From positions 1-44,180 of the forward strand of contig JBKBUA010000005.1 in the NCBI GenBank assembly GCA_046290845.1: 44,180 nt of DNA. Direction: 5' to 3'. Below the pieces are notes generated by a model. It searched no databases. It was not told the DNA's origin and was given only the letters and a program-made list of their open reading frames with translations. Below, one piece after another: positions 7,402-34,084 of this stretch; the stretch's first letter is position 1, and the number at the start of each line of letters is the position of its first letter. The DNA comes from Thermodesulfovibrionales bacterium (GTDB lineage: Bacteria; Nitrospirota; Thermodesulfovibrionia; Thermodesulfovibrionales; UBA9159). The position numbers were made by a program, and so were the translations under genes.

Positions 7402-7410
7402 AAATCCTCC

Positions 7411-12353: not shown

Positions 12354-12770
12354 TTATGGCGCCTTAATATCACCTATCCTCACCTTTGGTCTTCCCCCAA
12401 GACTCTGGAGATAAGCAATTACTGCTGTTATCTCAGCATCATTCAGATTCGCCGGTGGTTTATTCGCAGGCGGCATCACAGCAGTCCCGTTATAAAGAAA
12501 AGCTGCCATAGTCTCTGCATCCCTCTCAGCACCAATCCTTGAAAGGTCAGGACCGCGGAGTTTTTCACCTGTTACACTGTGACACACCCCGCAGCCTGCC
12601 TTCTTGAATATCCCCTTACCTTCCTCAGCGAGTTGGCGTGGGGTCATGTCAGGTGTAAGGATCTTCTTCTTTGGGGCTTCCCATGCTGACTGCGGGATAG
12701 AGTTACCAAACCAGGCATAAAAGCCTGTGATGACAATAGCCACTATTATAAGTTTTGTTCCTCCTTTCAT
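12354..12770 (-). CDS. Single-TM-anchored monohaem cytochrome c, module A
   Basis: N-terminal helix LIIVAIVITGFYAWF, CGVCHS motif, AVMPP distal Met. Overlaps the CydA-like gene stop by 4 nt. Confidence 0.85.
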   Translation of the reverse strand: MKGGTKLIIVAIVITGFYAWFGNSIPQSAWEAPKKKILTPDMTPRQLAEEGKGIFKKAGCGVCHSVTGEKLRGPDLSRIGAERDAETMAAFLYNGTAVMPPANKPPANLNDAEITAVIAYLQSLGGRPKVRIGDIKAP

Positions 12771-19717: not shown

Positions 19718-20410
19718 TTATTTGTGATCTATCTCCCTTTTTGCTTCTTCAAGGGCAGCCTTAAAGTCTGTAACCTTACCGCCGAACCTCCTGGAAAACT
19801 TCTCAGCTTCATCAGGAGAAGAAAAAGCTATTATGCTTACAGGGCTCATCGTGCCTGGTACTGAAGAGCCTATAACATAGAACGCCTTCCCTGCATCAAG
19901 CATCCTTTCAGGTCTGAGATATTCAGCAACCTTTACTTTTTTAGGTTCCTCCCCGAGCTTATAATAAGCCATTACCGCTAAGCAGTGTATTGAACAGGTA
20001 TAGAATCTTCCTTTTGATGTCTCAAACTCATATCTTGTACCTGCCCATTTGTTCAAGTCCATCCTGCAATTATCACACCCTTTATGTTCTGCCCTTCTAT
20101 TTATGGAACTTAAATCTAACAAAGGGGATTCCTTCATATCAGCAACGGAAAATCCCCTTTCAGGAGAGTAACTATAACCTCCTGGTATCGGCCATAGAGA
20201 TGTCTCATCAACAAAATCTATCCTTGGGTCATAATTCAGGAAACCCCACTCAGGACTTATAACTCCGCCGAGACCAAAACCACCCAAGTAATTTTGAAGT
20301 TCTCTTGCCCTCGAATCCTCTTTTTCAAAGATATACATATCAAGACCTATCATGACCAATGGGGCCATGAGGAGAAAGGGAATAATGAAGATTAACCTGC
20401 TCCTCTCCAT
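19718..20410 (-). CDS. NosL-like domain protein with N-terminal TM anchor and extra N-domain
   Basis: The C-terminal half has the NosL pattern: CDNCRM...FYTCSIHC...YVIGSSVPGTMSP..IAFSSPDEAEKFSRRFGGKV. Confidence 0.65.
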   Translation of the reverse strand: MERSRLIFIIPFLLMAPLVMIGLDMYIFEKEDSRARELQNYLGGFGLGGVISPEWGFLNYDPRIDFVDETSLWPIPGGYSYSPERGFSVADMKESPLLDLSSINRRAEHKGCDNCRMDLNKWAGTRYEFETSKGRFYTCSIHCLAVMAYYKLGEEPKKVKVAEYLRPERMLDAGKAFYVIGSSVPGTMSPVSIIAFSSPDEAEKFSRRFGGKVTDFKAALEEAKREIDHK

Positions 20411-20413
20411 AAA

Positions 20414-20962
20414 TTACCGCGGTTTCAGGATATCAGGGGTTATCTCTTCAAACTTGATGATCCGTCCACCATGTTTTTTAATATAATCCTCAGCATCGCT
20501 CCTTTTTGAAAAGGGAACGAGGGCCTCACCCATTGGTCCCATTATATCTCCACCATAGACATAAAAGGCCTCCTTCGCATCAACCCAGTTTCCAACAGGA
20601 TGATCCCACTGGGCCTTCCCCATATCATTCACATATATAGCAACAATATTCCTTGGCCTGTCAGGCTGGTGATAAAAGAGTAACATATCGAGGGTGCTGC
20701 AGAATGTATCAATCTCACCATTTCGGTAATGGATCTGTGCCTTTGAGCCAGGAAAGTCCACTATGATCATGCCGCAGACTCTGCAAGAATGTTGCCTTGT
20801 AAACTCTATGGGAGGAGGTTTTTCTACCGTCTTCTTGCAGGAGGTAAGGATAAAGGAAAAAACAAGAAGAAAGATCAATAGAACACACGTATAGGACGGT
20901 ACAGATTGGCATGACCAACCATACCGTCCTATGATCTGATGCTCCTGTAACAGAAAGATCAC
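20414..20962 (-). CDS. nosL: NosL-family copper chaperone lipoprotein
   Basis: Lipobox-like FILTSC. CRVCGM motif. ...YVYGGDIMGPMGEALVPFSKRSDAEDYIKKHGGRI matches the NosL family pattern. Confidence 0.8.
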   Translation of the reverse strand: MIFLLQEHQIIGRYGWSCQSVPSYTCVLLIFLLVFSFILTSCKKTVEKPPPIEFTRQHSCRVCGMIIVDFPGSKAQIHYRNGEIDTFCSTLDMLLFYHQPDRPRNIVAIYVNDMGKAQWDHPVGNWVDAKEAFYVYGGDIMGPMGEALVPFSKRSDAEDYIKKHGGRIIKFEEITPDILKPR

Positions 20963-22383: not shown

Positions 22384-22396
22384 CTTAACCTCCTGC

Positions 22397-23200: not shown

Positions 23201-23202
23201 AT

Positions 23203-23724
23203 CTATTTACCTCCCTTCTGAGCCTTATCAATCTGGGCCTTAAGGGCCTCAACCGATGCAGGATAACTCACAGTGACCTTACCACCCTTACTCTGGAGAA
23301 AGGCCGTTAATGCTATAAGCTCACCCTCATTAAGAGATGTTGGTGGCTTATGAACAGGTGGCATAATGTTATCAAATCCTTTTTCTACATAGGCACCAGG
23401 ATTAACAAGGGCCTCAAAGGCATGATCTTCTGGCTTCATATTCCTTTTCTTTGCCTCCTCTTCCATAAGCTTTCCGATAGTATCAATTGAAGGTGCCCTC
23501 ATGCCTGGTTCTGCCTTCATGGGATGGCAGACCATGCACTGCCCCTTTCCGAAGAGTATCTGCTCACCTATCTGGATCAACTCCTCAGTAGTAACCCCTT
23601 CCTGGATCTTCAGTTCCTTGGGTGGATGTGATTCTGATTGAGGAAGAAAATACAGCCCAATATAGGCAAAAAAGAGATTTATCCCTAAAACAACGAGACC
23701 TAATTTGATAGCTCCCGATCTCAT
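23203..23724 (-). CDS. Single-TM-anchored monohaem cytochrome c, module B
   Basis: Paralogue of 12354-12770: CMVCHP, NIMPP. 4-nt overlap with the CydA-like gene. Confidence 0.85.
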   Translation of the reverse strand: MRSGAIKLGLVVLGINLFFAYIGLYFLPQSESHPPKELKIQEGVTTEELIQIGEQILFGKGQCMVCHPMKAEPGMRAPSIDTIGKLMEEEAKKRNMKPEDHAFEALVNPGAYVEKGFDNIMPPVHKPPTSLNEGELIALTAFLQSKGGKVTVSYPASVEALKAQIDKAQKGGK

Positions 23725-25469
23725 CCTTCCTGCCTCCTTTCCTCAGCTACCTTTTCGAGTTTCATTATGCTCCAGAAGACAAAGGCAATAAGTGCAAAGA
23801 ATAGTAAGGTGATTATAGTAACTATTACTGCTGCTATACCATGGGCAGGGAGATAGGCATCAGGGCTCGTATCCTTAAGTATTCCATAGACATGCCAGTA
23901 TTGTCTGCCACCTGACCTCATATAACCCATCATTCCCATAAGCCATGTAAAAGTCACTGTAATCCCGATAAGGGCATACTGGGATCTTTCGGGCATCTTT
24001 CCCCAACGGGGTTCTCCTATCACCTTCGCTCCTTTATACATCTTGTTATCCAGGATGAAAAGGCCGATTATTGAAAGGAAGAATACACCGAATTGAATAG
24101 GAGAAAGCACCTTCACCCTCACCGCAGCAGGAACCATGTAACTGTAAACACCGATGATGAGAACGATAATGGTGGAAAATATTATTATACCTGCCCTTAT
24201 CGCCCTTCCAGTCTTTACCCAGGGAACAACAGGGTCCTTGTTGCTCATCCTGAAGATGGCATAACTCAGGAATGTGGCAAGATAAGAGATTATCACAGCC
24301 GTATTCTTTGCAGCCATGACACCGAGGTTGCCCAAGGCAGGGTGATACGCCCCGATCCTCCTTGCCTCCTCAAGGCTCAAGGCAACACTGTGGGGAGTTA
24401 GCCACACAAGGTAACCAAAGAGGACGGTTATAAAGAGGAACTTCACATACTTGAAGTACCTCTCACCGCCCGGCATCTTATTCAGGGATATCCATAGGTA
24501 ATAGTTGATAAAGAAGAGTATTGCTCCAATGAGGATAGCCTGCATGACCCAGAGCCATGCAAAGAATCCACCCATAAGCTGTATACCCATCTGTTCATTG
24601 AAGGCATAGATCTCTATACCGAGGAGATAGCCTATACCAGGAAGGATAAGAGAAAAACCTATTGCTATCATTGCTGATGTATAACCCATCCAGTCATAAT
24701 AGGCCTTTTCTTCTTCGTTTCTGGCGGTTATAAACCTGTAGGCAGCATAGGCAGCAGCAATTCCAGCGCCAAAAACGACATTTGCAACGAGCCTGTGAAG
24801 TGAAAGCGGTATCCACATGTAGGTCTTTATTGCTTGCCATCTATTGAGGAGTTCACCCTCAGGACTCACACCTCCAGGGGTGGTCATATACCCGACCCAT
24901 GCACTCGTTATTAGCAGTAGAATCGCACCCATCACATTCAGCAAGACCCCGATACCCACATGGGTTCCCTTTTTCTCCTTCATCCTCTGCCAGGAATAGA
25001 AGTAGTAGTAACAAACAAAGACCTCACCATACATGAAGAGTATGTAGAACCACCATGTTGGTCCGAGGATCTTCAGTAAATGGGCAATAAATTTGGGATA
25101 TAGCAGAGGTAGGCTCACCATAAGGATAGCGCCCATTATGGCAGTTAGTGTATAGGCTAATGTGAAGAGTTTTGTAAAGTCATAGGCGATCCTGTCGAGC
25201 CTCTCATCCTGCCTTTTCCATCCCAAAAATTCCATTGCAACCGCAAAGATAGGAACGCCCAGAACAAAGGCAGCAAAATTAAGATGTATCTGGGCGATTA
25301 TCCATACCCACACCCTGCTTCCAAGTAGAGGGAAAAATCTATACCCCTCAGGGCTTGGTGAGGGTAAAATACTCTTTAAGAAAAAAAGACCAGCAAATCC
25401 TGCACCCAGTATCAGGGTTAATTTAATAAAACCCTTAACAATCCCCTTTTTTACACTTCCTTCCGCCAC
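23721..25469 (-). CDS. CydA-like 'cytochrome bd-like' polytopic membrane protein (no CydB partner), module B
   Basis: Alignable end to end with 12767-14455 (shared DERLDR, HR[FL][IV]ANV, AAYAAY, EEKA[HY]YDWMGYT, RSQYALI, WH[IV]YG[VI]L). Retains the N-terminal His (AQIHLNF). Confidence 0.8.
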   Translation of the reverse strand: MAEGSVKKGIVKGFIKLTLILGAGFAGLFFLKSILPSPSPEGYRFFPLLGSRVWVWIIAQIHLNFAAFVLGVPIFAVAMEFLGWKRQDERLDRIAYDFTKLFTLAYTLTAIMGAILMVSLPLLYPKFIAHLLKILGPTWWFYILFMYGEVFVCYYYFYSWQRMKEKKGTHVGIGVLLNVMGAILLLITSAWVGYMTTPGGVSPEGELLNRWQAIKTYMWIPLSLHRLVANVVFGAGIAAAYAAYRFITARNEEEKAYYDWMGYTSAMIAIGFSLILPGIGYLLGIEIYAFNEQMGIQLMGGFFAWLWVMQAILIGAILFFINYYLWISLNKMPGGERYFKYVKFLFITVLFGYLVWLTPHSVALSLEEARRIGAYHPALGNLGVMAAKNTAVIISYLATFLSYAIFRMSNKDPVVPWVKTGRAIRAGIIIFSTIIVLIIGVYSYMVPAAVRVKVLSPIQFGVFFLSIIGLFILDNKMYKGAKVIGEPRWGKMPERSQYALIGITVTFTWLMGMMGYMRSGGRQYWHVYGILKDTSPDAYLPAHGIAAVIVTIITLLFFALIAFVFWSIMKLEKVAEERRQEG

Positions 25470-25519: not shown

Positions 25520-26236
25520 TTATTTCTTGCTCATGGTCACATTCAGGTCTGAGGCCTTCCCTGCCGAGACCTCCACATCCTTTTTTTCTTCCTTCAGGCC
25601 TTCATGCCAGAACCTTACAGTATATTTACCAGGAGGAAGGTCTTTAATCTCAAAGTTTCCATTATCATCTGTAATTGCTACATAGGGATGTTCCGAGACA
25701 TAGACATAGGCCCTCATCCATGCATGGGCATCACATTTAACATCGTGGAGACCTGTGGTCTTCACAGGCTTTGTTATAACCTGATCCTTCTTTGGAAGGG
25801 CAAGGTTATAAACCGTCCTCCTCTTGTCACCAAGCATAACCGCCAGGCTCGTATTGTGAAGGATCGGATCACTGTTCTTGAGGATATAATTTGATCCCTT
25901 GTAGGCAATGCTTACGAGGGGCTCAAAGTAGCATTTCTGGTTATCAATCGTTGTATCCTTCTTAGGCGCGGCCTTACCCTTTTGAACATTCTCTACTATC
26001 ACAAGCACATTCTTGATACCCATATCGCCTGATATAAGATACATATTAGAAGGCTGGCTACTACCACAGAATTCCACATCCTTCTCGATCTTGAGAACTG
26101 GAGATTCATATTTTCCCGCAACCTTCACCTTACCTTTAATACTGCCACCATTCTTGACATCAACAACCTCATAGGCAAATGAGGCAGTAACGATGGCCAG
26201 CAATAGAAACATCACGATTACTGTTATCCTTTTCAT
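25520..26236 (-). CDS. Exported cupredoxin-like domain + carboxypeptidase-regulatory-like (Ig-like) domain protein with a complete type-1 copper-like ligand pattern
   Basis: Signal peptide. DPILHNT ... KCDAHAWM gives His...Cys-x2-His-x2-Met, the amicyanin-type spacing. C-terminal DDNGNFEIKDLPPGKYTVRFWHEG. Confidence 0.6.
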   Translation of the reverse strand: MKRITVIVMFLLLAIVTASFAYEVVDVKNGGSIKGKVKVAGKYESPVLKIEKDVEFCGSSQPSNMYLISGDMGIKNVLVIVENVQKGKAAPKKDTTIDNQKCYFEPLVSIAYKGSNYILKNSDPILHNTSLAVMLGDKRRTVYNLALPKKDQVITKPVKTTGLHDVKCDAHAWMRAYVYVSEHPYVAITDDNGNFEIKDLPPGKYTVRFWHEGLKEEKKDVEVSAGKASDLNVTMSKK

Positions 26237-26300: not shown

Positions 26301-26801
26301 TCACCCCCTTTCCCCCATTATCTCCTTTATAAGTCTGTGAAGTTCAGGCTCATGGATATAATGTCCCACAACCCTCCTAACAAGCCTTTTAGAGTCCACA
26401 AAGACCAGTACAGGGACATAATTGATCCTGTATCTCTTTAGCAGGTCATCCCTGTTGCCTGCAAACATGGGAAATGTGAAACCCATCTCCTTTTTGTATG
26501 CCCTTACGAGTCTGCTATCCCTTGCCATTATGTTAATACCTATTATCCTCAGCTTATCCTTACCAAACTTAGCCTCTGCCCTTTTAAGATGGGCTATTAT
26601 CTGGGTGCAGTAATGACAGGCATTATGGGTAAAATAGATGATCGTTGGTCTGTCAATTAGAGTACCGAAATCTACATTCCTGTTGTCCTCATCAGGAAGA
26701 ACAAAGGTTGGTACAGGAGAACCGACAAGGTCTTCTCCGGCAGAATAAAGATTATAAGGCAGACTTAATGTCAAGATGATTACAAGGACCAAACTTTTCA
26801 T
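26301..26801 (-). CDS. Exported TlpA/redoxin-like thiol:disulfide oxidoreductase
   Basis: Signal peptide. Thioredoxin-fold active site FTHNACHYC (CxxC). cis-Pro region NYVPVLVFVD. Confidence 0.8.
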   Translation of the reverse strand: MKSLVLVIILTLSLPYNLYSAGEDLVGSPVPTFVLPDEDNRNVDFGTLIDRPTIIYFTHNACHYCTQIIAHLKRAEAKFGKDKLRIIGINIMARDSRLVRAYKKEMGFTFPMFAGNRDDLLKRYRINYVPVLVFVDSKRLVRRVVGHYIHEPELHRLIKEIMGERG

Positions 26802-27838
26802 CCTATCTTCATCCTCATGACCTCATATCTCAGTCTATTTCTGTAGTTATGACCGTAAACCACCGGCACACCGTCAGCCTCGATGTATGTATAGGCAAAG
26901 GTATTAATGATATCCTCCTGTTTTGGAACAAGGTCGATACCCCGGCCTGAGGAGAACTTTATCCTGTCAGGTGGTATCCTACCGAAATAAAAATCCCTCA
27001 TCTCTGGCCTCCTCTTTGCCTCTGAGATATCAACGGGTACCCATTTCCTATCACTGTAAAAACTTACCCAACTGTGGGCATTTATACAGTCAGCCTCTAT
27101 CTCTCCCTTTTTCTTCATCTCAGATGGATAGGGCAGAAGTATCCCTTGTTCCCATCTCACAGGTATTCCCTTATACATCATCATGCTCCTGAAGAGGGCA
27201 TGGAATTCATCACACCTTCCTGCCCTCTCCTCAAAGGCAATGGAACTCACTCCCCTTCCGCAGACCTCATGGACATAATTAAGCCTATCTATAATTGCAT
27301 CAAAGACCTTCCTTCCGATCCTAACAGTATCCCTCTCATTCCCTATCACCCTCTCAGCAAAGTCCATGATATTTTTATCCCACTTCTCCCATTCAGAGGG
27401 TTTAAGAGATCCTTCATCGGGCTCGCCACCATGAATACCCTCTATCCTTCTATCTAAATGGAAGGAAAGGATAATCCTTTCACCTGCCTTAAGTCTTCCT
27501 GTCTCGAGATAAAAGATCTTATTATTCCTGTCCTCCGTAATCCTGCCAGATATCTTTGATTTAATATCCACTCCTTTAATCTCCTGAGCATGGTCACTTC
27601 TTGGAACTGGCATCCATATCCTTACAAGCCCCGCCTTTGGAGGCCTTAATATCTCGGTGGTGTAAGTGATCTTCAGTGAAACAGACCTTACATTCCTGTC
27701 CTCTATGGTCTTTGCAGAGGTCAAGACAGGATATATCCCCTCGCCTAAGAGGAAGAAGGTTCCAAACAGAAAGGCCCTCCTGCTAAGGCTACAGGTAATC
27801 ACCTGATTACCTGTTCTCCTCTCATTTCTTTTCCTCAT
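26798..27838 (-). CDS. TAT-exported transglutaminase-like (Cys-His-Asp) superfamily protein
   Basis: Probable start MRKRNERR at 27838. Twin-arginine motif LSRRAFLFG. Core motifs GRCDEFHALF...GIPVRWEQG, NAHSWVSFY, WVPVDISE. Confidence 0.75.
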   Translation of the reverse strand: MRKRNERRTGNQVITCSLSRRAFLFGTFFLLGEGIYPVLTSAKTIEDRNVRSVSLKITYTTEILRPPKAGLVRIWMPVPRSDHAQEIKGVDIKSKISGRITEDRNNKIFYLETGRLKAGERIILSFHLDRRIEGIHGGEPDEGSLKPSEWEKWDKNIMDFAERVIGNERDTVRIGRKVFDAIIDRLNYVHEVCGRGVSSIAFEERAGRCDEFHALFRSMMMYKGIPVRWEQGILLPYPSEMKKKGEIEADCINAHSWVSFYSDRKWVPVDISEAKRRPEMRDFYFGRIPPDRIKFSSGRGIDLVPKQEDIINTFAYTYIEADGVPVVYGHNYRNRLRYEVMRMKIG

Positions 27839-28259
27839 CAGGCAAGACATCTCCTGTAACAACCAATGTAGTCATCTGTCTATTTCTATCGTTTGTCCAG
27901 ACCTCAACATACTTAGAAATATGTCCCACCTTAACAGCAGGGACAGAGGTATCCACTATCACTGTAATCTTACCCTTCTCATTAGGACCTATCTCTGCCG
28001 AACTGGCAGTAGCAGTCGTACAGGCCCTTCAGGCAGGTATGAGTTTATCGATCCTGAGTACCCCGCCTCCCTCATTGATGAACTCAAAGTCATGGACTAT
28101 CCTCTCCCCTTTCTTTACAGAGCCAAAGTCAAACCTCGTCTCATAGAACCTGATCGAAGGTTCCTCAGCCCTGACGGTGCCTGACAAAACCAGAAGATAC
28201 AAAGAAAGAATCAAAAAAATCCTAAGGGGATAGGTTGATCTCCACATCTTTCCTCTCAC
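27822..28259 (-). CDS. DUF1573-like exported protein interrupted by one in-frame TGA (28031-28029): candidate selenoprotein (UxxC) or pseudogene
   Basis: The track ORF 28029-28259 stops at ...LRIDKLIPA-TGA. The same frame continues for 68 more codons (RACTTATASSAEIGPNEKGKITVIVDTS...VVTGDVLPDEEKK*) to TGA 27824-27822. Both halves together resemble one DUF1573 domain, and the TGA sits at the family's Cys motif. Confidence 0.55.
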
Positions 28260-28983
28260 CTTTCTTAAGAGAGATCTTTACTTTTTTGAAACCAAAGCCC
28301 TCGTGCCATACCATAAGGGTATATTCTCCTGGTAAGATTCCCTCCAGATTAAAGGAACCTGTCTCATCCGTCACAGCCCCGTAGGGATGATCAAAGACAA
28401 AGACATAACCTCTGAGCCAGCTATGGGCATTGGATTTTATCCTCACATAACCTCGATCAGCAGAATAGGAGTGGTACTCTTTAATGGGTTTTTCTACCTT
28501 CATCCCTTTCTTAGGAAGGGCAATATTATAAATAGTAGCCCCGTCTTCTAATGGCCTTTGAGATAGGGTCTTGTGGTATTCCAGGCCCAGTTTGAGCTGG
28601 AGCGTGTGGAGTATGGGATCCTCATTTCTAAAGATGAATCTTCCTCCCACGAAGCCCACATTCACAAGAGGCTCCACCTCGCAATTCTTTATTGTTATCC
28701 ACACATCCTTAGGGGTTAAAGCTCTACCCTTTTTAACACCATCAAGCCAGACAACTGCATTCTTTACAACACCCTTTGAGATAAGGTATTTCCTGGCAGC
28801 CCTTTCACTTCCGCAGACCTCTGTATCTCGATCAATCTTTATGAGCTCATCAGCAGGGACTGAACCAGTGAACCTCACATAGCCGTTAATTGTTGCTCCA
28901 TCCGTCACAGAAACTACCTCATAGCCCATTACAGGAAGGGCAGTAACGAGGATTGTAACAGTAGCAATCAAAAGAACTCTCAT
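28222..28983 (-). CDS. Paralogue of 25520-26236 (cupredoxin-like + Ig-like domains) lacking the Cys and Met copper ligands
   Basis: Same architecture (DPILHTL ... KSNAHSWL ... DETGSFNLEGILPGEYTLMVWHEG). Ser replaces Cys and Leu replaces Met. ATGA overlap with nosY. Confidence 0.6.
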   Translation of the reverse strand: MRVLLIATVTILVTALPVMGYEVVSVTDGATINGYVRFTGSVPADELIKIDRDTEVCGSERAARKYLISKGVVKNAVVWLDGVKKGRALTPKDVWITIKNCEVEPLVNVGFVGGRFIFRNEDPILHTLQLKLGLEYHKTLSQRPLEDGATIYNIALPKKGMKVEKPIKEYHSYSADRGYVRIKSNAHSWLRGYVFVFDHPYGAVTDETGSFNLEGILPGEYTLMVWHEGFGFKKVKISLKKGERKDVEINLSP

Positions 28984-29825
28984 GTCAAGTACCTCCTTTT
29001 AAATAGATAATGGCTTGCGGCTAAGGGCACTATAATCCATAACAGGGATATCAAGAGGAGAATCGAAGTCTTAAAGAAAGCAGGGAATTCAACAGATGCA
29101 AGACCTATAAATACCTTAAACTCACCTATAGAAAGAAAGTTCATTACCCTGTAAATATCAACAGGGTTCAGTAACAGAAGGGTGGTAAAGATAGCACTGC
29201 TCAATTCACCCTTTGTAAGGATGAGAAGACCAAGCAGAGCGAGGTCATAAAGCACCGAAAGTGAAAGCCATATAAAGATCATAAAGGCAATGACCTTCGA
29301 CCTCTCCTCAAAGAGGACAGAAATAAGGAATGAGAGGCTCAGGAAGATAAGGCCAAGGATAATAGAATTAAACATAAAGAATATATAACTCTTTGAGGCA
29401 GCAAAACCAGCCTTTAATATGAGTATAAGACCGGCAAGGCCAAGACCTCCGAGGGTTGAGATGGTCAGGCTTATTAAGAGGCCTGAGAACTTCCCTGCTA
29501 TGAATTCTGAGAAAGAGATGGGTGCTGAGAGGAAAAGGTCAAGAGTACCCCTTTCCCTCTCATCTATTATTATTCCACCTCCCAGAGTAAGAGCGAGTAT
29601 AGGGATGAAATAGGTAACGAGGCTCGTGAGGCTTGCCACTGTTGCCTCGATCCTCCTGAATCCTGCTATACCCGATGGTGCTGAACCGAAGTAGGCAATA
29701 AGGATAGTAAATACCGAAAAGGCAGTTGCTATTACTATTACCCACCTCGTCCTTAACCTGTCTGTGAGTTCCTTTCTTGCTATTGCACCTATAGCATCAA
29801 TGGAGACCAAAGAACACCTCCTCAA
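28980..29825 (-). CDS. nosY: NosY, ABC-2-type permease of the NosDFY system
   Basis: Six-TM ABC-2 permease directly downstream of nosF within the nos cluster. Confidence 0.85.
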   Translation of the reverse strand: MRRCSLVSIDAIGAIARKELTDRLRTRWVIVIATAFSVFTILIAYFGSAPSGIAGFRRIEATVASLTSLVTYFIPILALTLGGGIIIDERERGTLDLFLSAPISFSEFIAGKFSGLLISLTISTLGGLGLAGLILILKAGFAASKSYIFFMFNSIILGLIFLSLSFLISVLFEERSKVIAFMIFIWLSLSVLYDLALLGLLILTKGELSSAIFTTLLLLNPVDIYRVMNFLSIGEFKVFIGLASVEFPAFFKTSILLLISLLWIIVPLAASHYLFKRRYLT

Positions 29826-30696
29826 GACTCGGCTCTATTACTGTAAGGTCAACAAAGCTATCCCTTTTTTCCATGAGCGATGAAAGAACCCTCATCTTTT
29901 CATTCCTCGGGATAGTGGCATAAATATAACCATCCCTTTTCGTTATATCCTTTACCCCTTCCCCTCTCAAAACATCTTCAACCGAGCCATTCATCGAGAC
30001 AGCAGGAAGTATCGAGAGTTTAAGGGGAAGGTTCAGTCCTGTATAAAGTTCTGTCAGACTCCCGATGGCCTTTAACGAGCCATTCTTCAATATAGCCACC
30101 CTATCAACCCTTGCCTCGATCTCTGCAAGGACATGAGATGAAAGGAGAACCGTCAGTCCCTTTCTCTGCCTAACAGCCAGGAGGGTTTCGTAGAAATCCT
30201 TTGTTCCGACAGGATCAAGGCCTGATGTTGGCTCATCGAGGATCAGTATATCAGGGTCATTAACAAGGGCCTGGGCAAGATTCAGCCGCTGCCTCATACC
30301 CTTTGAATAGGTACCCACCCTTCTTGAAAGAAAATCCTCTGAGACAATACCTTTGAGTAAGTCAGGCAGCCCATTAAGTTTTACTCCCTTTATCCTCGCA
30401 AAGAGGTTAAGTACCTCCATTCCTGTAAGATTGTCATAAAAAGAGATCCTCTCGGGCATGTATCCTATCTTTCTTTTAAAGGAGAGCCAGTCCTTTTCAC
30501 CTAAATCTTTTCCATATAAAAGCACCTCCCCAGAGGATGGTCTTAGTATGCCTGTCAGTATCCTGAGGAGTGTGGACTTGCCAGAGCCATTAGGACCCAC
30601 AAGACCGAGCATCTCCCCCTCCTTTATGGTAAAGGATACGGAGTCAAGGGCCTTTATATCCCCATAATTCTTTGTTATCTCTCTAAATTCAATCAT
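29797..30696 (-). CDS. nosF: NosF, ABC ATPase of the NosDFY system
   Basis: Walker A GPNGSGKST, signature YSKGMRQRL, Walker B ILILDEPTSGLD. Lies between the nosD domain gene and nosY. Confidence 0.9.
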   Translation of the reverse strand: MIEFREITKNYGDIKALDSVSFTIKEGEMLGLVGPNGSGKSTLLRILTGILRPSSGEVLLYGKDLGEKDWLSFKRKIGYMPERISFYDNLTGMEVLNLFARIKGVKLNGLPDLLKGIVSEDFLSRRVGTYSKGMRQRLNLAQALVNDPDILILDEPTSGLDPVGTKDFYETLLAVRQRKGLTVLLSSHVLAEIEARVDRVAILKNGSLKAIGSLTELYTGLNLPLKLSILPAVSMNGSVEDVLRGEGVKDITKRDGYIYATIPRNEKMRVLSSLMEKRDSFVDLTVIEPSLEEVFFGLH

Positions 30697-30697
30697 A

Positions 30698-32920
30698 TCA
30701 ATGCATCGGAAGCTTATCTATATCGCCATAATACCTTACAGGACTGTAAGGGAATCTCTCCTTCATCTCCTTCCATTGAGCGTGAAAGGGAAACATTGAT
30801 GGTCTTCTGTCAACAACCCTCGGCACCTTAAGAAAGGGAAACTGCTTCTCTATGACCCACAATACCTGTAGTGCAGGGCTTGAATAAAGTATCTTTGCCA
30901 TGGGATATCTCCAGAGTATATGATCCACTACTGTGTTTGATTCATAGGCTATGTCACCGATACCGTCCTCTGTCATGTCCCAGCCCAGGTAATCACTCCA
31001 GTAATTGTTATCCCATTGCTGATCCCTGCTTGCCACGAACTTAACCTGAATCTCGTTATTAATAAAAGAATTCTTTGTGACCTCGTTCTCCTCAGACCCT
31101 CCCCAGCTATGGAGGCCAAGATTATTGTTCATGATAAGGTTGCCAGTTAGTTTATTAAGTATAGAGTTATAGAGAAATATGCCCTTTGTGTTGCCTATCA
31201 CTATGTTGTCCTTTATCTCACCCCTTACAGTCTGGATAAGGAGAAGCCCGTGAGTCTTATTTCCAACAGAGATGTTATTGTTCATCTCCGACTGCTTTGT
31301 ATACATTATAGCAAGCCCAACGAGATTCTCCTGTGCATGGTTGTTGTTAAAGACTCCCCTGTCAACCCACATGGTATGAAGGGCATATCTGGAATTCCTA
31401 ATCTCATTGTTTATTATTTTTCCATCGTGAGAGACCTCCACATACATACCATCCCTGCAGTAATTCAATCTGTTTCCTGATACCGTTGCCTCCTGGGCAT
31501 CGGTTAGATAAATGCAATTGCCCCTGTAATTGAGGTCCAGTTCCTTCCTGCCATCAACAACGTTACCTTCGATCCTTATGCCCCTGTTACTTACTGCCCA
31601 TATACCGAACATGATATCCTTCAGATGGTTGTTTCTCACAGTAACACTATCAGCACCCTTTCCTACATAGATCCCTGTACTCTGTGTACCTGGAACATCC
31701 CTTCCATGGATAAGGGTGAATCCCTCTACAGTAACATCCTTTTTTAATACAGTAATGATGTTACCCCTTTCGACCTTTATAACAGGATTGTTTATTCCCT
31801 TGAGATAGATACTTTTATTAATAGTTATCTCCTCACTGTATTCGCCACCCCTGACCTCAATAGTATCGCCATCTTTAGCAACCCTGATAGCTTCAGATAT
31901 GCTCTTATAACCCTCAGGCCCAACATAAAGGGTCTTCCCATAAAGGATAGATGGGATTAAAAGCACCAAAAGAACAAGGCCTGCTGCATGAGCCTTCAAA
32001 GGCATCTCTTTTCCCTTCTTCTTCTGTCTTATAAGGACAGGGCAAAGTTCCTGATCACAGTAATTTAACTGACAGTCAAGGCACTCAAGACATTCCTTCA
32101 TATCTATAGTGCCATCCGCTATAGCCTGAGGTCTGCAGGTCCTTCCGCATATCTTACAGGTTCCGCAGAAGTCATACCTTGCTATCCTTAAAATCGGAAT
32201 CCTTCTGATAAAAGAAGGTATCGCCAGGGCAGCACCCAGTGGGCAGAGATAGCGGCAGAAGGCCCTGTATATTAAGACTGAGCCGATGGTTATCACCATA
32301 AAATAGGCAACAAAAAACCAATCCCTCTTTAATTTAAGGACAAAGGTCCTGAAGGGCTCTATCTCGGTGAGATACTCAGAGAGCATAAAGCTGTAAAAAG
32401 ATACGGCTGCAATGATTAAAAAAAAGATATATTTCAGATAGACCATCCTTGTGTTGACCTTCCCGGAGATCCTGATCCTGAGCCCTGGAAAGAACCTGTC
32501 ATAGACCTTGTTAAGGAGTTCTAAAAAGGCACCATAAGGACAGAGCCATCCACAGAAAACACCCCTTCCCCAGAAAACAATAGTTATGGCAATAAAGATA
32601 AAGGAGATAAATATGAAGGGCTCTAAGAGAAAGAGGCCGAGGGGAAACTGCATCTCTTTAAGGGAATTGAGGATAATCACTATATTGGTGGTTGTTGGCT
32701 GTGCCTTCAGGAATAATCCCACATAGACAAATGATATAACAAGAAAAGTATTTCTCAATATCTTAACGGCCTTTCTATTCTTCGAAAGCCTCCCCCTGAA
32801 GACCATGATAAGGAGAATTGAGATAAGAAAGAGAGAAAATATGATAATACTGGAGACATTCATTTCCCAGACCTGTCTCCAGAGAGAGAATTCCGAGATC
32901 TCTGTCATAACTTCTTCCAT
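30698..32920 (-). CDS. Fusion: NosR C-terminal half (TM helices with CxxxCP motifs + 2x[4Fe-4S]-type Cys clusters) joined via one TM helix to a full NosD beta-helix domain
   Basis: Probable ATG at 32920, 1 nt after the stop of the preceding gene. CGWLCPYGA and CRYLCPLGA. CGTCKICGRTCRPQA and CLECLDCQLNYC. Helix AAGLVLLVLLIPSILYG. NosD repeats follow (...RGNCIYL...CRDGMYVE...SRYALHTMW...VGLAIMY...NYWSDYLGWDMTEDGIGD...SSPALQVL). Confidence 0.85.
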   Translation of the reverse strand: MEEVMTEISEFSLWRQVWEMNVSSIIIFSLFLISILLIMVFRGRLSKNRKAVKILRNTFLVISFVYVGLFLKAQPTTTNIVIILNSLKEMQFPLGLFLLEPFIFISFIFIAITIVFWGRGVFCGWLCPYGAFLELLNKVYDRFFPGLRIRISGKVNTRMVYLKYIFFLIIAAVSFYSFMLSEYLTEIEPFRTFVLKLKRDWFFVAYFMVITIGSVLIYRAFCRYLCPLGAALAIPSFIRRIPILRIARYDFCGTCKICGRTCRPQAIADGTIDMKECLECLDCQLNYCDQELCPVLIRQKKKGKEMPLKAHAAGLVLLVLLIPSILYGKTLYVGPEGYKSISEAIRVAKDGDTIEVRGGEYSEEITINKSIYLKGINNPVIKVERGNIITVLKKDVTVEGFTLIHGRDVPGTQSTGIYVGKGADSVTVRNNHLKDIMFGIWAVSNRGIRIEGNVVDGRKELDLNYRGNCIYLTDAQEATVSGNRLNYCRDGMYVEVSHDGKIINNEIRNSRYALHTMWVDRGVFNNNHAQENLVGLAIMYTKQSEMNNNISVGNKTHGLLLIQTVRGEIKDNIVIGNTKGIFLYNSILNKLTGNLIMNNNLGLHSWGGSEENEVTKNSFINNEIQVKFVASRDQQWDNNYWSDYLGWDMTEDGIGDIAYESNTVVDHILWRYPMAKILYSSPALQVLWVIEKQFPFLKVPRVVDRRPSMFPFHAQWKEMKERFPYSPVRYYGDIDKLPMH

Positions 32921-32921
32921 C

Positions 32922-34007
32922 TTATTCCATAAACCTCTCAGGTAATCTATAGTCTGTGGTAAAAGATTTGAATTCCTTTTTTGCAACGGTCGGTCTGTAA
33001 GGTAGCAGGAGATTAAAGGTAAAGGGCCCCGTTGGATCGAAATCCATATCCCTCACGATAAAGATTCCTCCTTCTTTTATCACAGGTGCACCAGGTGACT
33101 TTAGCTCTGTAAGGATGCGGTAATCCCTATCCCTGAAGACATAGACCTTACTCTCCTGCTCAAGGTTAAATCTGTCAAAGACACCGCCCCTTGCGAAGCC
33201 TGAACCTTTGAAGGAACCCGTACCAGTCGCTACAACGAATATAGCGGTCTCTCCATTTTTTAATGAACTCATGATATCCCTGTAAAGTGCCTCGCCAAGG
33301 ACATTCCTTCCGATAGAAGGCGGATTAAGGATGCCAAAGTAGAGGTCAATATAAGCCTCAGCACCTTTAATACCCAGTTCCTTCGGATAGACCTTGAGAT
33401 TTTTCACCCCTCCTGCCTTCTGGAGGTCCTCCCAGGTAAGACTTTGGTACTTCTGGCTTATCCTCCTCTCCGCCTTTTTTGCAACCTTAATCAATCCAGT
33501 CTCAGAAGCCACCTTTCTTGCACTTCCAAGGATAATGACATTCTGCACAACTGCTGTAACCGTGGCGCCTGTTATTGCATCCATTGATATCTCTTTGCCA
33601 ACAGAAAGGGGCTTGAGTATGCTCTTTCCTTGATACTGTTTAAGAAACTTCTGATAATTCTCCTCCTTCAGCCCTATAAGGACTATGGGTTCTGAATGGA
33701 ATAAGAGTTTGACACCCGTTATATTTCCATTTATATCAATACCGATTAAGGTCTCCATATGCTTGCCCGAATAACCAACAAGTTTTTCTGTCCAGTCCTT
33801 AGATATAAAGACATATCCTAGGAGGGTCCTTCCCCTGTAACCTTCCCAGTAGCCCTTTTTCTGAACAAATCTATCTGCCTGAAGGACATCTTCGAGTTTA
33901 TAGGGATATCTATGCTCAAAAAACTTCCACTGATCCCCATAGGCATTAAGGGGAAGCAAAATAAAAAAAAGCATTATCACACCTTTCTTCAAGATACACA
34001 CCTCCAT
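32922..34007 (-). CDS. NosR N-terminal half as a separate exported protein (FMN-binding periplasmic domain)
   Basis: Signal peptide. FMN_bind motif SMDAITGATVTAVV. NosR-like segment PPSIGRNVLGEA...GSFKGSGFARGGVFDRF. Ends with TAA 32924-32922. Confidence 0.8.
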   Translation of the reverse strand: MEVCILKKGVIMLFFILLPLNAYGDQWKFFEHRYPYKLEDVLQADRFVQKKGYWEGYRGRTLLGYVFISKDWTEKLVGYSGKHMETLIGIDINGNITGVKLLFHSEPIVLIGLKEENYQKFLKQYQGKSILKPLSVGKEISMDAITGATVTAVVQNVIILGSARKVASETGLIKVAKKAERRISQKYQSLTWEDLQKAGGVKNLKVYPKELGIKGAEAYIDLYFGILNPPSIGRNVLGEALYRDIMSSLKNGETAIFVVATGTGSFKGSGFARGGVFDRFNLEQESKVYVFRDRDYRILTELKSPGAPVIKEGGIFIVRDMDFDPTGPFTFNLLLPYRPTVAKKEFKSFTTDYRLPERFME

Positions 34008-34010
34008 AAT

Positions 34011-34073
34011 AACAGGCTATAGGCCTTAGCGAAGACGACATATTGTCCAGTGCCTGAAAGCCTATAGCCTGTT
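34011..34073 (-). repeat. Perfect 14-bp inverted repeat (stem-loop) in the nosZ to nosR-N intercistronic gap
   Basis: AACAGGCTATAGGC (34011-34024) and GCCTATAGCCTGTT (34060-34073) are separated by 35 nt. No U-tract follows. Confidence 0.7.
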
Positions 34074-34084
34074 CATCAGCCCTT

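What the first reader, a model, noticed from the sequence alone, without database searches (positions are those of the whole stretch)
27822..28259. In-frame TGA at the conserved Cys motif of a DUF1573 protein, followed by a stem-loop: candidate selenocysteine (UxxC)
Seen: the ORF reads ...GGGVLRIDKLIPA-TGA-RACTTATASSAEIGPNEKGKITVIVDTS... with no frame change. It ends 68 codons later at a TGA that overlaps the start of the next gene, as do other junctions in this array. As I recall the family, DUF1573 domains carry ...S-C-G-C-T-T... exactly here, so the TGA falls in the redox-type Cys motif and yields U-R-A-C. One nt after the UGA the mRNA can fold: GGGCCU (28027-28022) pairs with AGGUCC (27990-27985). 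This encloses CUGCC-AGUUC-GGCAG (28009-27995), whose apical loop contains G-U about 26 nt from the UGA. The geometry is bacterial SECIS-like. TGA is used as a normal stop elsewhere in the window (ATGA junctions at 18546 and 28980), so this is not a recoded genome. The alternative is a recent nonsense mutation (pseudogene). A thiol/selenol protein between a cupredoxin-like protein and a TlpA-like redoxin would fit metallocentre assembly.
Basis: partly seen in the sequence, partly recalled or inferred. Interest (0 to 1): 0.7.

Follow-up and report, generated by a model that had tools for sequence, protein, structure and literature searches.

The report
Selenocysteine protein in N2O-reductase gene cluster
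The in-frame TGA is almost certainly a real selenocysteine codon, with its own conserved RNA hairpin, in a small exported DUF1573 protein that sits in the nitrous-oxide reductase gene cluster of Nitrospirota bacteria; that protein family is already known to include selenoproteins, but this subfamily and its link to copper-enzyme maturation are not described.

Summary
The minus-strand gene 28247-27822 has one in-frame TGA (28031-28029), and the read-through product matches Pfam DUF1573 end to end. The window is a contig of a Thermodesulfovibrionales MAG.

Evidence for selenocysteine (Sec):
- I recovered 9 further copies of this domain from 8 other contigs, giving 10 copies that are 40-81% identical to each other. 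All 10 have TGA at the same column, followed by conserved in-frame coding.
- 9 of the 10 read U-x-x-C-T. Ordinary DUF1573 domains have C-G-C there, so the Sec aligns with the first Cys.
- A hairpin lies 24 nt downstream of the TGA: a 5-7 bp stem and a loop with invariant G-U. It fits the published bacterial SECIS model, pairs in every copy with compensatory changes, and suppresses synonymous variation.
- TGA is also the commonest ordinary stop in the window (20 of 39 genes).

What was not confirmed or not tested:
- The Sec machinery could not be checked in this genome.

DUF1573 ("OS_HP2", motif UGC) has been a listed selenoprotein family since 2007, so the kind is known. This clade differs in its UxxC motif, in scoring below the NCBIfam cutoff, in its fixed place in nosZ clusters, and in fusions to SCO1/SenC. 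Together these suggest a selenol-based role in NosZ copper-centre maturation, which is inferred only.

The parts
27822..28247 (-). Complete selenoprotein gene: 141 codons including one Sec codon, running from ATG 28247 to stop TGA 27824-27822. DUF1573 (ASH/PapD-like Ig) domain.
   Evidence: Translation. Pfam PF07610 matched over 1-98/98, E 2.4e-16. NCBIfam NF041425 OS_HP2 (seleno)protein, 68.4 bits, below the cutoff of 100.
28167..28247 (-). Predicted N-terminal signal peptide, MWRSTYPLRIFLILSLYLLVLSGTVRA, then EEPS. This implies a periplasmic protein.
   Evidence: Read directly from the sequence; no signal-peptide predictor was available. The same hydrophobic leader occurs in L010 and L011.
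28029..28031 (-). In-frame UGA read as selenocysteine.
   Evidence: It is the only long-ORF-splitting TGA in the window that lies inside a gene with conserved coding on both sides. TGA is conserved at this column in 10 of 10 domain copies and aligns with the first Cys of the C-G-C motif.
28020..28031 (-). U-R-A-C motif: Sec codon, AGG, GCC, TGT.
   Evidence: U-[RK]-[AR]-C-T occurs in 9 of 10 copies; the tenth reads U-R-R-A-T.
27993..28012 (-). SECIS upper stem-loop. Core CUGCC-AGUUC-GGCAG at 28009-27995, extended to 7 bp with a bulged A. Loop G at 28003 and U at 28002. There are 24 nt between the UGA and the loop.
   Evidence: Folding (-6.7 kcal/mol for the core, -8.7 extended). Core paired in 9 of 9 sequences, with 3 compensatory cells and 2 wobble cells. 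Identical codon among same-residue pairs: 0.81 here against 0.40-0.44 in the flanks. Unique in the window. Fits the bSECIS model quoted in PMC13188914.
27985..28027 (-). Outer stem specific to this window: GGGCCU 28027-28022 with AGGUCC 27990-27985. Probably not a conserved part of the element.
   Evidence: Present in the window's minimum-free-energy fold, but only 63% paired and without covariation across orthologues.
28222..28983 (-). Upstream neighbour: 253-aa exported protein with a C-terminal CarboxypepD_reg domain. In some orthologous loci it is fused to the Sec-DUF1573 domain.
   Evidence: Pfam. Fusions in L012, L016 and L017.
26798..27838 (-). Downstream neighbour: transglutaminase-like protein with a twin-arginine-type leader. 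Used as the anchor to find orthologous loci.
   Evidence: Pfam PF01841. 111 homologues, named ones all Nitrospirota. Same gene order in 9 loci.
26301..26801 (-). TlpA/ResA-like periplasmic thiol-disulfide oxidoreductase with a C-H-Y-C motif.
   Evidence: Pfam AhpC-TSA, Redoxin and Thioredoxin_8. Best NCBIfam hit is ResA.
28980..35896 (-). Core nos genes upstream: nosZ (34085-35896, TAT type), nosR N-terminal half (32922-34007), nosR C-terminal half fused to nosD (30698-32986), nosF (29797-30696), nosY (28980-29825).
   Evidence: Pfam and NCBIfam: TIGR04244 at 827 bits, TIGR04247 at 371 bits.
19718..20962 (-). Two nosL genes closing the extended cluster.
   Evidence: Pfam PF05573, E 1.8e-46 and 8.2e-15.

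Best explanation
**What it is.** The gene 28247-27822 (minus strand) encodes a small exported protein of the DUF1573 family, an ASH/PapD-like Ig fold. The UGA at 28031-28029 is translated as selenocysteine.

**How the UGA is decoded.**
- Shown: the mRNA folds, 24 nt downstream of the UGA, into a conserved 5-7 bp stem with an AGUUC loop (28012-27993) that fits the bacterial SECIS model.
- Inferred from the established bacterial mechanism: SelB-GTP carrying Sec-tRNA(Sec) binds this hairpin and delivers Sec to the UGA in the ribosomal A site, so translation continues for 68 more codons.

**The active site.** The Sec forms a U-x-x-C pair in the tight turn between two beta-strands, at the place where ordinary DUF1573 domains have C-G-C.

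**Likely function.**
- Shown: the protein is a fixed component of the nitrous-oxide reductase cluster of Thermodesulfovibrionales and other Nitrospirota. The gene order is nosZ, nosR, nosD, nosF, nosY, a CarboxypepD_reg protein, this gene, a transglutaminase-like gene, a TlpA-like gene, and further on nosL.
- Shown: in some relatives it is fused to a SCO1/SenC domain, and in others to the upstream CarboxypepD_reg protein.
- Inferred: in the periplasm it works with Sco and the TlpA-like reductase, either as a selenol/thiol redox relay or as a Cu(I)-binding carrier, in assembling the copper centres of NosZ.

The confidence given (0.85) is for the selenocysteine-coding part; for the proposed role in NosZ maturation I would put it at about 0.5.
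For: **1. The domain continues across the TGA.** PF07610 is matched over 1-98/98.

**2. The TGA is conserved.** It sits at the identical column in 10 of 10 domain copies, from the window plus L001, L010, L011, L012 (two copies; L013 is a second contig with the same sequence), L014, L015, L016 and L017.
- The copies are 40-81% identical to each other, median 50%.
- Downstream motifs such as VEVWTND are conserved in frame.
- Gene callers truncate every one of them at the TGA.

**3. There is a Sec/Cys pair.** The nearest Cys form, P0230, is 45% identical and has PSCGCT aligned to PAURACT. S-C-G-C-T is invariant in 41 Cys homologues.

**4. The hairpin fits the SECIS model.**
- The published model requires a 3-9 nt loop, a 4-16 bp stem, a G in the first two loop positions, 16-37 nt spacing and MFE <= -7.5 kcal/mol (PMC13188914).
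- Here the loop is AGUUC, the spacing is 24 nt, the stem is 5-7 bp, and the energy is -8.7 to -11.2 kcal/mol for the hairpin alone in most copies (-7.4 in L015) and -20 for the 60-nt region.
- Only 1.7% of the 1850 TGA trinucleotides in the window have such a hairpin.

**5. The structure is maintained by selection.**
- The core stem pairs in 9 of 9 sequences. L014 has U-A changed to C-G; L015 and L012b have C-G changed to U-A; there are two G-U changes. L017, not in that alignment, repeats the L014 form.
- Sliding the pairing partner by 1-3 nt drops pairing from 79.5% to 32-48%.
- In L015 the peptide changes from ASASSAE to ASVGQTE while the hairpin is kept.
- Among sequence pairs with the same residue, the identical codon is used in 0.81 of cases in hairpin codons +7 to +12, against 0.40 upstream and 0.44 downstream. 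The two Ser codons, AGU and UCG, are identical in all such pairs.

**6. TGA is not reassigned.** It ends 20 of 39 genes in the window.

**7. The family is a recognised selenoprotein family.** DUF1573/OS_HP2 is listed with motif UGC (PMC9312934, PMC13188914, PMC1976440). NF041425 'OS_HP2 family (seleno)protein' is the best NCBIfam hit.

**8. The lineage can use Sec.** Thermodesulfovibrio genomes carry complete selA, selB, selC and selD (PMC5389517).

**9. Evidence for the function.**
- The cluster is a nos cluster.
- SCO1/SenC-DUF1573(U) fusions occur in L001, L014 and L015.
- In more distant clusters, Sco alone occupies the same slot.
- A TlpA-like redoxin lies two genes downstream in all but one of the loci examined; in L016 one extra gene intervenes.
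Against: - The Sec machinery (selA, selB, selC, selD) was not seen. Neither the 44-kb window nor the fetched loci contain it or a tRNA-Sec, and the rest of the genome could not be searched.
- There is no experimental evidence of Se incorporation.
- With only 9-10 sequences the covariation statistics are modest. The column-shuffle control is not decisive: 13 of 500 shuffles reach the observed percentage paired, and 88 of 500 reach the covariation score.
- The window's 5-bp core alone is only -6.7 kcal/mol and needs the bulged extension or the outer stem to pass the energy criterion.
- No orthologue with Cys in a C-x-x-C arrangement was found; the Cys homologues are C-x-C.
- The protein scores below NCBI's curated cutoff for OS_HP2 (68 against 100 bits).
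- The proposed role in NosZ maturation rests only on gene neighbourhood and domain fusions.
- The fold search returned only generic ASH/PapD-like domains, with no metallochaperone match.
- One domain copy (L012b) has Sec but no partner Cys.
Confidence: 0.85

Rival explanations
1. The UGA and hairpin recruit a SelB-type factor, but the residue inserted is cysteine. It would be delivered by a tRNA(Sec)-like 'selC*' tRNA(Cys), so the mature protein carries C-x-x-C rather than U-x-x-C, either always or when selenium is scarce.
For: selC* tRNA(Cys) genes were reported in Thermodesulfovibrio and in contigs attributed to Nitrospirae. A UCA-anticodon form was shown to translate an opal Sec codon as Cys in an E. 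coli test system (PMC5389517).
Against: The opal-anticodon selC* forms, with their dedicated CysRS* and SelB*, were described in Desulfobacterales and Syntrophobacterales, not in Nitrospirota. The same paper reports complete selA, selB, selC and selD in the selC-containing genomes. If Cys were the intended residue, a TGY codon would do the job without the cost of a SECIS, yet none of the 10 copies has TGY. No tRNA of any such kind lies in the held loci.
Confidence: 0.06
2. The UGA is a true stop. The product would be the 72-residue N-terminal fragment, and the downstream hairpin a regulatory or mRNA-stability element. Equivalently, occasional near-cognate read-through could make a minor long form without Sec.
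For: All automatic gene calls stop at the TGA. TGA is the commonest stop in the window.
Against: The 68 codons after the TGA are conserved at the protein level, in frame, in all 10 copies. They have no start codon of their own and complete the DUF1573 profile. Half of a beta-sandwich domain would not fold; the model of the Cys homologue shows strands on both sides of the motif. The TGA sits exactly on the catalytic Cys column.
Confidence: 0.04
3. The TGA is a recent nonsense mutation (pseudogene) or a sequencing or assembly error.
For: None beyond the bare presence of an in-frame stop. The source is a metagenome-assembled genome.
Against: The same TGA is found in independent assemblies from NCBI, ENA, JGI and Logan, in sequences only 40-81% identical. 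Coding downstream is under purifying selection. A co-conserved hairpin is present.
Confidence: 0.01
4. UGA is reassigned genome-wide to a sense codon such as Trp or Gly.
For: None.
Against: 20 of 39 genes in the window end in TGA. Only one long-ORF-splitting TGA in the window lies inside a gene. The aligned residue in homologues is Cys.
Confidence: 0.005

Closest known systems
OS_HP2 / DUF1573 selenoproteins. First predicted in the delta-proteobacterial symbionts of Olavius algarvensis (Zhang & Gladyshev 2007, PMC1976440); listed in the reviews PMC9312934 and PMC13188914; NCBIfam NF041425.
   Same: Same Pfam domain (PF07610). The Sec is at the same column, the first Cys of the S-C-G-C-T motif. 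It is a small protein. The bacterial SECIS lies immediately downstream. NF041425 is the best NCBIfam match and covers the full length of the profile.
   Different: The motif is U-x-x-C, with a one-residue insertion, rather than U-G-C. All six nos-linked copies scanned score 58-78 bits against the curated cutoff of 100. The hosts are Nitrospirota. The gene has a fixed position in nosZ clusters and is fused to SCO1/SenC or to a CarboxypepD_reg protein. None of this appears in the papers I could search.
Ordinary Cys-type DUF1573 domains. Examples: P0230, the Bacteroidota proteins, and PDB 2qsv from Porphyromonas gingivalis.
   Same: Same fold and the same position of the reactive motif, in the turn between two strands. 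P0230 is 45% identical. The model has pLDDT 87 and matches 2qsv at rmsd 1.4 A.
   Different: They carry C-G-C with no Sec and no SECIS. They often occur as many tandem repeats in giant proteins. The one genomic context examined was unrelated to copper or nos genes. Their function is unknown.
The Sco / TlpA system for CuA-centre assembly. SCO1/SenC copper chaperones are kept reduced by the periplasmic thioredoxin TlpA; this is established knowledge from Bradyrhizobium and Rhodobacter, recalled from memory.
   Same: It is encoded next to a TlpA-like redoxin, is physically fused to a SCO1/SenC domain in L001, L014 and L015, and occupies the slot that Sco alone holds in related clusters. NosZ has a CuA centre. 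The motif is of the dithiol type (here selenol/thiol) in an exported protein.
   Different: The fold is Ig-like, not thioredoxin-like. It contains Sec. Neither copper binding nor reductase activity has been shown. The window's own protein has no Sco domain, and no Sco gene lies in the window.
Metal-handling selenoproteins with UxxC or UxxU motifs. Examples listed in the reviews: heavy-metal ATPase N-terminal domains, CobW-like proteins and MerT/mercuric-reductase-like proteins.
   Same: Sec replaces the first Cys of a metal-binding type motif, and they were identified in anaerobic bacteria by the same Sec/Cys and SECIS logic.
   Different: They have unrelated folds, and none is associated with nos clusters.

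Membership tests
Bacterial selenoprotein gene (SelB/SECIS-dependent UGA decoding) | In-frame UGA with conserved coding sequence continuing downstream in the same frame | tested here: met
   The Pfam profile is matched over 1-98/98 across the TGA. Downstream residues are conserved in 10 copies.
Bacterial selenoprotein gene (SelB/SECIS-dependent UGA decoding) | UGA conserved at the same column in homologues from different organisms | tested here: met
   10 of 10 domain copies from 9 distinct sequences, 40-81% identical. In addition, 19-24 representative clusters at 50% identity end exactly before the motif.
Bacterial selenoprotein gene (SelB/SECIS-dependent UGA decoding) | Cys-containing homologues with Cys aligned to the UGA (Sec/Cys pair) | tested here: met
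   P0230 (45% identical) has C-G-C there. S-C-G-C-T is invariant in 41 homologues. L002-L009 show the same. Caveat: the Cys forms are C-x-C, not C-x-x-C.
Bacterial selenoprotein gene (SelB/SECIS-dependent UGA decoding) | Downstream stem-loop meeting the bSECIS model: loop 3-9 nt, stem 4-16 bp, G in the first two loop positions, 16-37 nt from the UGA, MFE <= -7.5 kcal/mol (PMC13188914) | tested here: met
   Loop AGUUC, spacing 24 nt, stem 5-7 bp. The energy is -8.7 kcal/mol for the window's extended hairpin and -20 for the 60-nt fold; in the orthologues the hairpin alone is -7.4 to -11.2.
Bacterial selenoprotein gene (SelB/SECIS-dependent UGA decoding) | The RNA structure is maintained by selection (covariation, synonymous constraint) | tested here: met
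   The core stem pairs in 9 of 9 sequences, with 3 compensatory and 2 wobble cells. Slide controls give 32-48% pairing against 79.5%. The same-codon fraction is 0.81 against 0.40-0.44. The shuffle control alone is not significant with so few sequences.
Bacterial selenoprotein gene (SelB/SECIS-dependent UGA decoding) | selA, selB, selC and selD present in the same genome | not testable with these tools
   Only the 44-kb contig is available. No sel gene or tRNA-Sec is in it or in the loci. Indirect evidence: Thermodesulfovibrio genomes have the full set (PMC5389517).
Bacterial selenoprotein gene (SelB/SECIS-dependent UGA decoding) | Selenium demonstrably incorporated (75Se labelling or mass spectrometry) | not testable with these tools
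   Requires an experiment.
Pfam DUF1573 (PF07610) | Score at or above the Pfam gathering threshold over the whole domain | tested here: met
   60 bits against 26.1, profile 1-98/98. The model of the closest Cys homologue matches the DUF1573 structure 2qsv.
NCBIfam NF041425 OS_HP2 family (seleno)protein | Score at or above the curated cutoff of 100 bits | tested here: not met
   The window scores 68.4 bits and six orthologues score 58.3-77.6 bits. It is nonetheless the top hit and covers the full length.
NCBIfam NF041425 OS_HP2 family (seleno)protein | U-G-C motif, as listed in the reviews | tested here: not met
   U-[RK]-[AR]-C in 9 copies and U-R-R-A in one.
SCO1/SenC copper chaperone | SCO1/SenC thioredoxin-like domain with a CxxxC motif | tested here: not met
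   The window protein has no such domain. In L001, L014 and L015 a separate SCO1/SenC domain (C-S-A-R-C-P in L001) is fused N-terminally. This is a functional link, not membership.

The most novel reading that the evidence does not exclude
Maturation of nitrous-oxide reductase in Thermodesulfovibrionales and other Nitrospirota includes a step that depends on selenium. In this reading the Sec-DUF1573 protein is a periplasmic selenol-based Cu(I) carrier or reductase. It would work with, and in some species be fused to, Sco and the TlpA-like thioredoxin to load or repair the CuA and/or CuZ centres of NosZ. N2O reduction by these organisms would then depend on selenium supply. This would be the first selenoprotein assigned to copper-centre biogenesis.
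Probability: 0.35. Interest if true: 0.7.

Novelty: new member of a known kind. Interest (0 to 1): 0.5.

Why it matters
- **Annotation.** Every automatic annotation I saw truncates this gene at the TGA. Some 19-24 representative clusters of related proteins in public sets end at the same point, so a widespread selenoprotein subfamily is being mis-called as 70-90-residue fragments.
- **Function of DUF1573.** The subfamily gives a domain of unknown function its first coherent functional context. It is a fixed slot in nos clusters, beside a TlpA-like reductase, and it is repeatedly fused to a SCO1/SenC copper chaperone.
- **Possible biology.** If the inferred role holds, it adds a new accessory factor to the still incomplete picture of how the copper centres of N2O reductase are assembled. 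It would also tie N2O consumption in anoxic aquifers and sediments to selenium availability.
- **What is not new.** The decoding mechanism is textbook, and the family was already known to contain selenoproteins.

Tried and rejected
- **Word-indexed protein search.** The search with the read-through sequence gave no hit at E <= 1e-3.
- The exhaustive search would not accept the read-through protein, whether given as letters or as a DNA reference. The same restriction applies to structure prediction. I therefore searched with the N-terminal 72 residues and modelled the closest Cys homologue instead.
- **PDB sequence search.** A profile built from two sequences found only spurious hits.
- **Rfam.** No hit at gathering thresholds. 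As far as I recall, Rfam has no general bacterial SECIS model.
Tested and not conserved.
- **Fold search of the DUF1573 model.** Only generic ASH/PapD-like, HYDIN and VesB Ig domains, plus the uncharacterised 2qsv. No metallochaperone-like match.
- **The 'cupredoxin-like' neighbour.** AlphaFold on the two paralogues gave pLDDT 35, which is unusable. Pfam at E <= 10 on their N-terminal parts gave nothing.
- **Look-ups that yielded nothing useful.**
  - The 253-aa neighbour is not on record under my start-codon choice.
  - The P0090 locus has no DNA available.
  - The contexts of L019 and L020 are uninformative.
- **tRNA scans.** None of the window or 9 loci contains a tRNA-Sec.
- **Literature searches.** I found no paper linking selenoproteins to nos clusters or to Magnetobacterium.
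Full report
**1. What is in the sequence**

On the minus strand an ORF runs from GTG 28259 or ATG 28247 to a TGA stop at 27824-27822. It contains a single in-frame TGA at 28031-28029. It continues for 68 codons after the TGA.

With the TGA read through, the 141-residue product (counted from ATG 28247) matches Pfam DUF1573 (PF07610) over profile positions 1-98 of 98. The E-value is 2.4e-16 and the score 60 bits against a gathering score of 26.1. The TGA therefore lies inside one continuous domain. The N-terminus (MWRSTYPLRIFLILSLYLLVLSGTVRA, then EEPS) looks like a cleavable signal peptide; I read this by eye and had no predictor.

A scan of all six frames found no other TGA in the window that splits a real gene. 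TGA is the commonest ordinary stop, ending 20 of 39 genes, so the code is not reassigned.

**2. Where it sits**

The window is a 44,180-bp contig of a Thermodesulfovibrionales MAG; the neighbouring protein P0001 is 100% identical and its NCBI record names that organism. The gene lies in an extended nitrous-oxide reductase cluster on the minus strand. The order is:

- cytochrome c (35911-36756)
- TAT-type NosZ (34085-35896; TIGR04244, 827 bits)
- NosR N-terminal half (32922-34007)
- NosR C-terminal half fused to NosD (30698-32986)
- NosF
- NosY
- a 253-aa protein with a CarboxypepD_reg domain (28222-28983)
- the DUF1573 gene
- a transglutaminase-like protein with a twin-arginine-type leader (26798-27838)
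- a TlpA/ResA-like redoxin (26301-26801)
- a 238-aa paralogue of the CarboxypepD_reg protein
- a cytochrome bd subunit I-like membrane protein and c-type cytochromes
- two NosL genes (19718-20962)

A transglutaminase-like gene intervenes, however, and I could not verify the cupredoxin label.

**3. Orthologues**

- A direct protein search found nothing.
Its domain is about 60% identical and reads ...DLIPA-TGA-KACTSASASSAEIGPGEKGKITV, with TGA at the same column.
- I then used the adjacent transglutaminase-like protein as an anchor. It has 111 homologues, and essentially all the named ones are Nitrospirota, including Candidatus Magnetobacterium. I fetched the DNA around a spread of them.
- In L010, L011, L012 (with L013 as a duplicate contig), L014, L015, L016 and L017, the gene upstream of the anchor is a DUF1573 gene that the gene callers end at a TGA. 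Reading through gives P[AG]-U-[RK]-[AR]-C-T followed by conserved sequence up to VEVWTND... and a normal stop.
- L012 has two tandem DUF1573 domains in one ORF, each with its own in-frame TGA. The second reads U-R-R-A-T and has no partner Cys.

This gives ten domain copies that are 40-81% identical to each other, with a median of 50%. They come from NCBI, ENA and Logan assemblies. All ten have TGA and none has TGY. That excludes a sequencing error or a recent nonsense mutation.

**4. The Sec/Cys pair**

- More distant DUF1573 domains from metagenomes (L002-L009, 30-39% identical) have S-C-G-C-T or S-C-D-C-V at this point.
- An exhaustive search with the N-terminal 72 residues gave 379 hits at E <= 1e-3. 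Among the best 150 representative clusters, 19-24 end exactly one residue before the motif, with endings such as ...LIPA...LVPA...LVTS and ...VKAS. This is what TGA truncation would produce. Complete domains carry C-x-C, and CGC makes up 78 of the 96 cases. No C-x-x-C form was found at the site.
- The nearest full-length Cys form, P0230, is 45% identical over 110 residues. It aligns PSC-GCT to PAURACT with a one-residue gap.
- In 41 Cys homologues, S-C-G-C-T is invariant.

The UGA therefore corresponds to the first Cys of the family's only invariant motif. This clade has lengthened the motif to U-x-x-C.

**5. The RNA element**

In the window, the 60 nt after the UGA fold to -20 kcal/mol, with z = -1.74 against shuffles. 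On a single sequence this is weak evidence. The comparative evidence is much stronger.

- All copies have a hairpin at the same register: (C)UCUGCC-AGUUC-GGCAGAG, with 24 nt between the UGA and the loop.
- The 5-bp core pairs in 9 of 9 aligned sequences. L014 changed U-A to C-G, L015 and L012b changed C-G to U-A, and two sequences have G-U. L017, which is not in the alignment, repeats the C-G form.
- Loop positions 2-3 are G-U in every copy.
- Sliding the 3' partner by 1-3 nt drops pairing from 79.5% to 32-48%.
- With so few sequences and so little variation, the column-shuffle control is not decisive (13 of 500 and 88 of 500).
- In L015 the encoded peptide changes from ASASSAE to ASVGQTE while the hairpin is preserved.
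- For sequence pairs with the same residue, the identical codon is used in 81% of cases within hairpin codons +7 to +12, against 40% upstream and 44% downstream. The two serines are always AGU and UCG, out of six possible Ser codons.

The element meets every criterion of the published bacterial SECIS model (PMC13188914):

- The model requires a loop of 3-9 nt, a stem of 4-16 bp, a G in the first two loop positions (commonly followed by G or U), a spacing of 16-37 nt, and MFE <= -7.5 kcal/mol.
- The window's core alone is -6.7 kcal/mol. With a bulged A it becomes a 7-bp stem at -8.7 kcal/mol.
- The hairpins of the orthologues alone are -7.4 to -11.2 kcal/mol.
- Only 32 of the 1850 TGA trinucleotides in the window (1.7%) are followed by such a hairpin.
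- The 15-mer is unique in the window.

I treat it as incidental.

**6. What could not be tested**

- No sel gene and no tRNA-Sec lie in the window or in any fetched locus, and I had no way to search the rest of the genome.
- The literature reports the complete selA, selB, selC and selD apparatus in Thermodesulfovibrio genomes. It also reports selC overlapping or embedded in selB in Nitrospirae (PMC5389517 and PMC13188914). The lineage can therefore use Sec, but this is indirect evidence.
- The same paper describes tRNA(Sec)-like tRNA(Cys) species (selC*) in this lineage. That leaves a small chance that Cys rather than Sec is inserted at this UGA.

**7. Fold and likely mechanism**

A model of P0230 (pLDDT 87) is a seven- or eight-stranded Ig-like sandwich. 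The S-C-G-C residues lie in the tight turn between strands 58-65 and 70-74. Foldseek finds ASH/PapD-like domains and the uncharacterised P. gingivalis DUF1573 structure 2qsv at rmsd 1.4 A, but nothing with a known chemistry.

The functional evidence is therefore contextual.

- The gene has a fixed position in nos clusters.
- A TlpA-like periplasmic reductase lies two genes downstream in all but one of the loci examined; in L016 one extra gene intervenes.
- In L001, L014 and L015 the Sec-DUF1573 domain is the C-terminal half of a protein whose N-terminal half is a SCO1/SenC domain with the C-x-x-x-C-P signature.
- In L012, L016 and L017 it is instead fused to the upstream CarboxypepD_reg protein.
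- In more distant clusters (L018 and the P0090 locus), a Sco protein alone occupies the slot.

Sco proteins and TlpA are the established machinery for reducing and metallating CuA sites; I recall this from work on Bradyrhizobium and Rhodobacter. NosZ has a CuA centre. My best reading is that the U-x-x-C turn is a selenol/thiol redox or Cu(I)-binding site acting with Sco and TlpA during NosZ maturation. This step is inferred, not shown.

**8. Comparison with what is known**

DUF1573 is already on the list of prokaryotic selenoprotein families. It was predicted as 'OS_HP2' in the Olavius symbiont metagenome in 2007 and is listed with motif U-G-C in the 2022 and 2026 reviews. NCBI has a model for it, NF041425.

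- The window protein and six orthologues hit that model best and over its full length, but at 58-78 bits against a curated cutoff of 100.
- Their motif is U-x-x-C rather than U-G-C.
- They are therefore a separate clade of the same Sec-bearing domain family, not members of the curated subfamily.
- I found no paper that connects a selenoprotein with nos clusters, and none that gives DUF1573 a function.

**9. Verdict**

This is a genuine, SECIS-equipped selenoprotein gene with confidence of about 0.85 to 0.9. The remaining doubt is mostly the untested Sec machinery and the Cys-insertion variant.

In kind it is a new member, a distinct clade, of a known selenoprotein family that uses the textbook decoding mechanism. 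Its interest lies in three things: the systematic mis-annotation of these genes, the first usable functional context for DUF1573, and the testable idea that copper-centre maturation of N2O reductase in Nitrospirota uses selenium.

Noticed in passing
L012:5499-5501 and L012:5835-5837 (also L013:134 and 470): One ORF combines a CarboxypepD_reg protein with two tandem DUF1573 domains and carries two in-frame TGAs. Each TGA has its own AGUUC-loop hairpin 24 nt downstream. The second domain reads U-R-R-A-T, so its Sec has no partner Cys. A lone selenol must therefore suffice for whatever that domain does.
   Followed up: partly
window 30698-34007 (minus strand); L001:3564-6911; L014 and L015: NosR is split. 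The FMN-binding N-terminal half is a separate gene, and the Fer4_5 membrane C-terminal half is fused to NosD in a 762-aa product. The same arrangement occurs in L001, L010-L012, L016 and L017. In L014 and L015 the three parts are separate genes, and in the P0090 locus all are fused (1114 aa).
   Followed up: partly
window 25520-26236 and 28222-28983 (minus strand): Two paralogous exported proteins, 38% identical, with a C-terminal CarboxypepD_reg domain and an N-terminal part that has no Pfam match. The 238-aa copy has His127 and a C-D-A-H-A-W-M stretch, a spacing reminiscent of type-1 copper ligands by eye. The 253-aa copy next to the selenoprotein gene has S-N-A-H-S-W-L there. The AlphaFold model was unusable (pLDDT 35).
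   Followed up: partly
window 26798-27862 (minus strand): A transglutaminase-like (papain-fold) protein with an SRRAFL twin-arginine-type leader is conserved in these nos clusters: 111 homologues, and the named ones are all Nitrospirota. Its role in a nos cluster is unknown. Its start is ambiguous: NCBI uses ATG 27838, which overlaps the selenoprotein gene by 17 nt, while orthologues point to GTG 27802.
   Followed up: partly
window 20968-25469 and 11578-14455 (minus strand): Inside the nos cluster there is a module made of a cytochrome bd subunit I-like membrane protein (582 aa, weak Pfam match), a 173-aa protein with no family match, and c-type cytochromes including one with an EB_dh/DOMON haem domain. 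It is conserved in L010-L012, L016 and L017. A second bd-like protein plus cytochromes c lies at 11578-14455. This may be a quinol-to-NosZ electron route.
   Followed up: no
window 5336-11638 (minus strand): An NXR/NAR-type molybdopterin oxidoreductase set: a 1149-aa catalytic subunit, a 4Fe-4S subunit, an EB_dh-type haem subunit and a NarJ-like chaperone. It lies next to a radical-SAM/SPASM protein and a tandem-Usp protein.
   Followed up: no
protein representatives P0119, P0120, P0154, P0160, P0165, P0167, P0169, P0177, P0182, P0185, P0187, P0191, P0204, P0206, P0208, P0225, P0228, P0246, P0247 and others: Some 19-24 of the top 150 clusters (at 50% identity) hit by the N-terminal half end exactly one residue before the Cys motif. 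Those ending in ...PA resemble the nos-linked clade. Those ending in ...TS, ...AS or ...LS look like the classical S-U-G-C (OS_HP2) type. Sec-DUF1573 genes therefore seem widespread and are routinely mis-called as 60-100-residue fragments.
   Followed up: partly
window 17887-18804 and 18546-19715 (minus strand): The listed ORFs for an ABC ATPase and a MacB/FtsX-type permease overlap by about 260 nt. The ATPase probably starts further downstream than the first GTG. The same gene pair follows NosL in L015.
   Followed up: no
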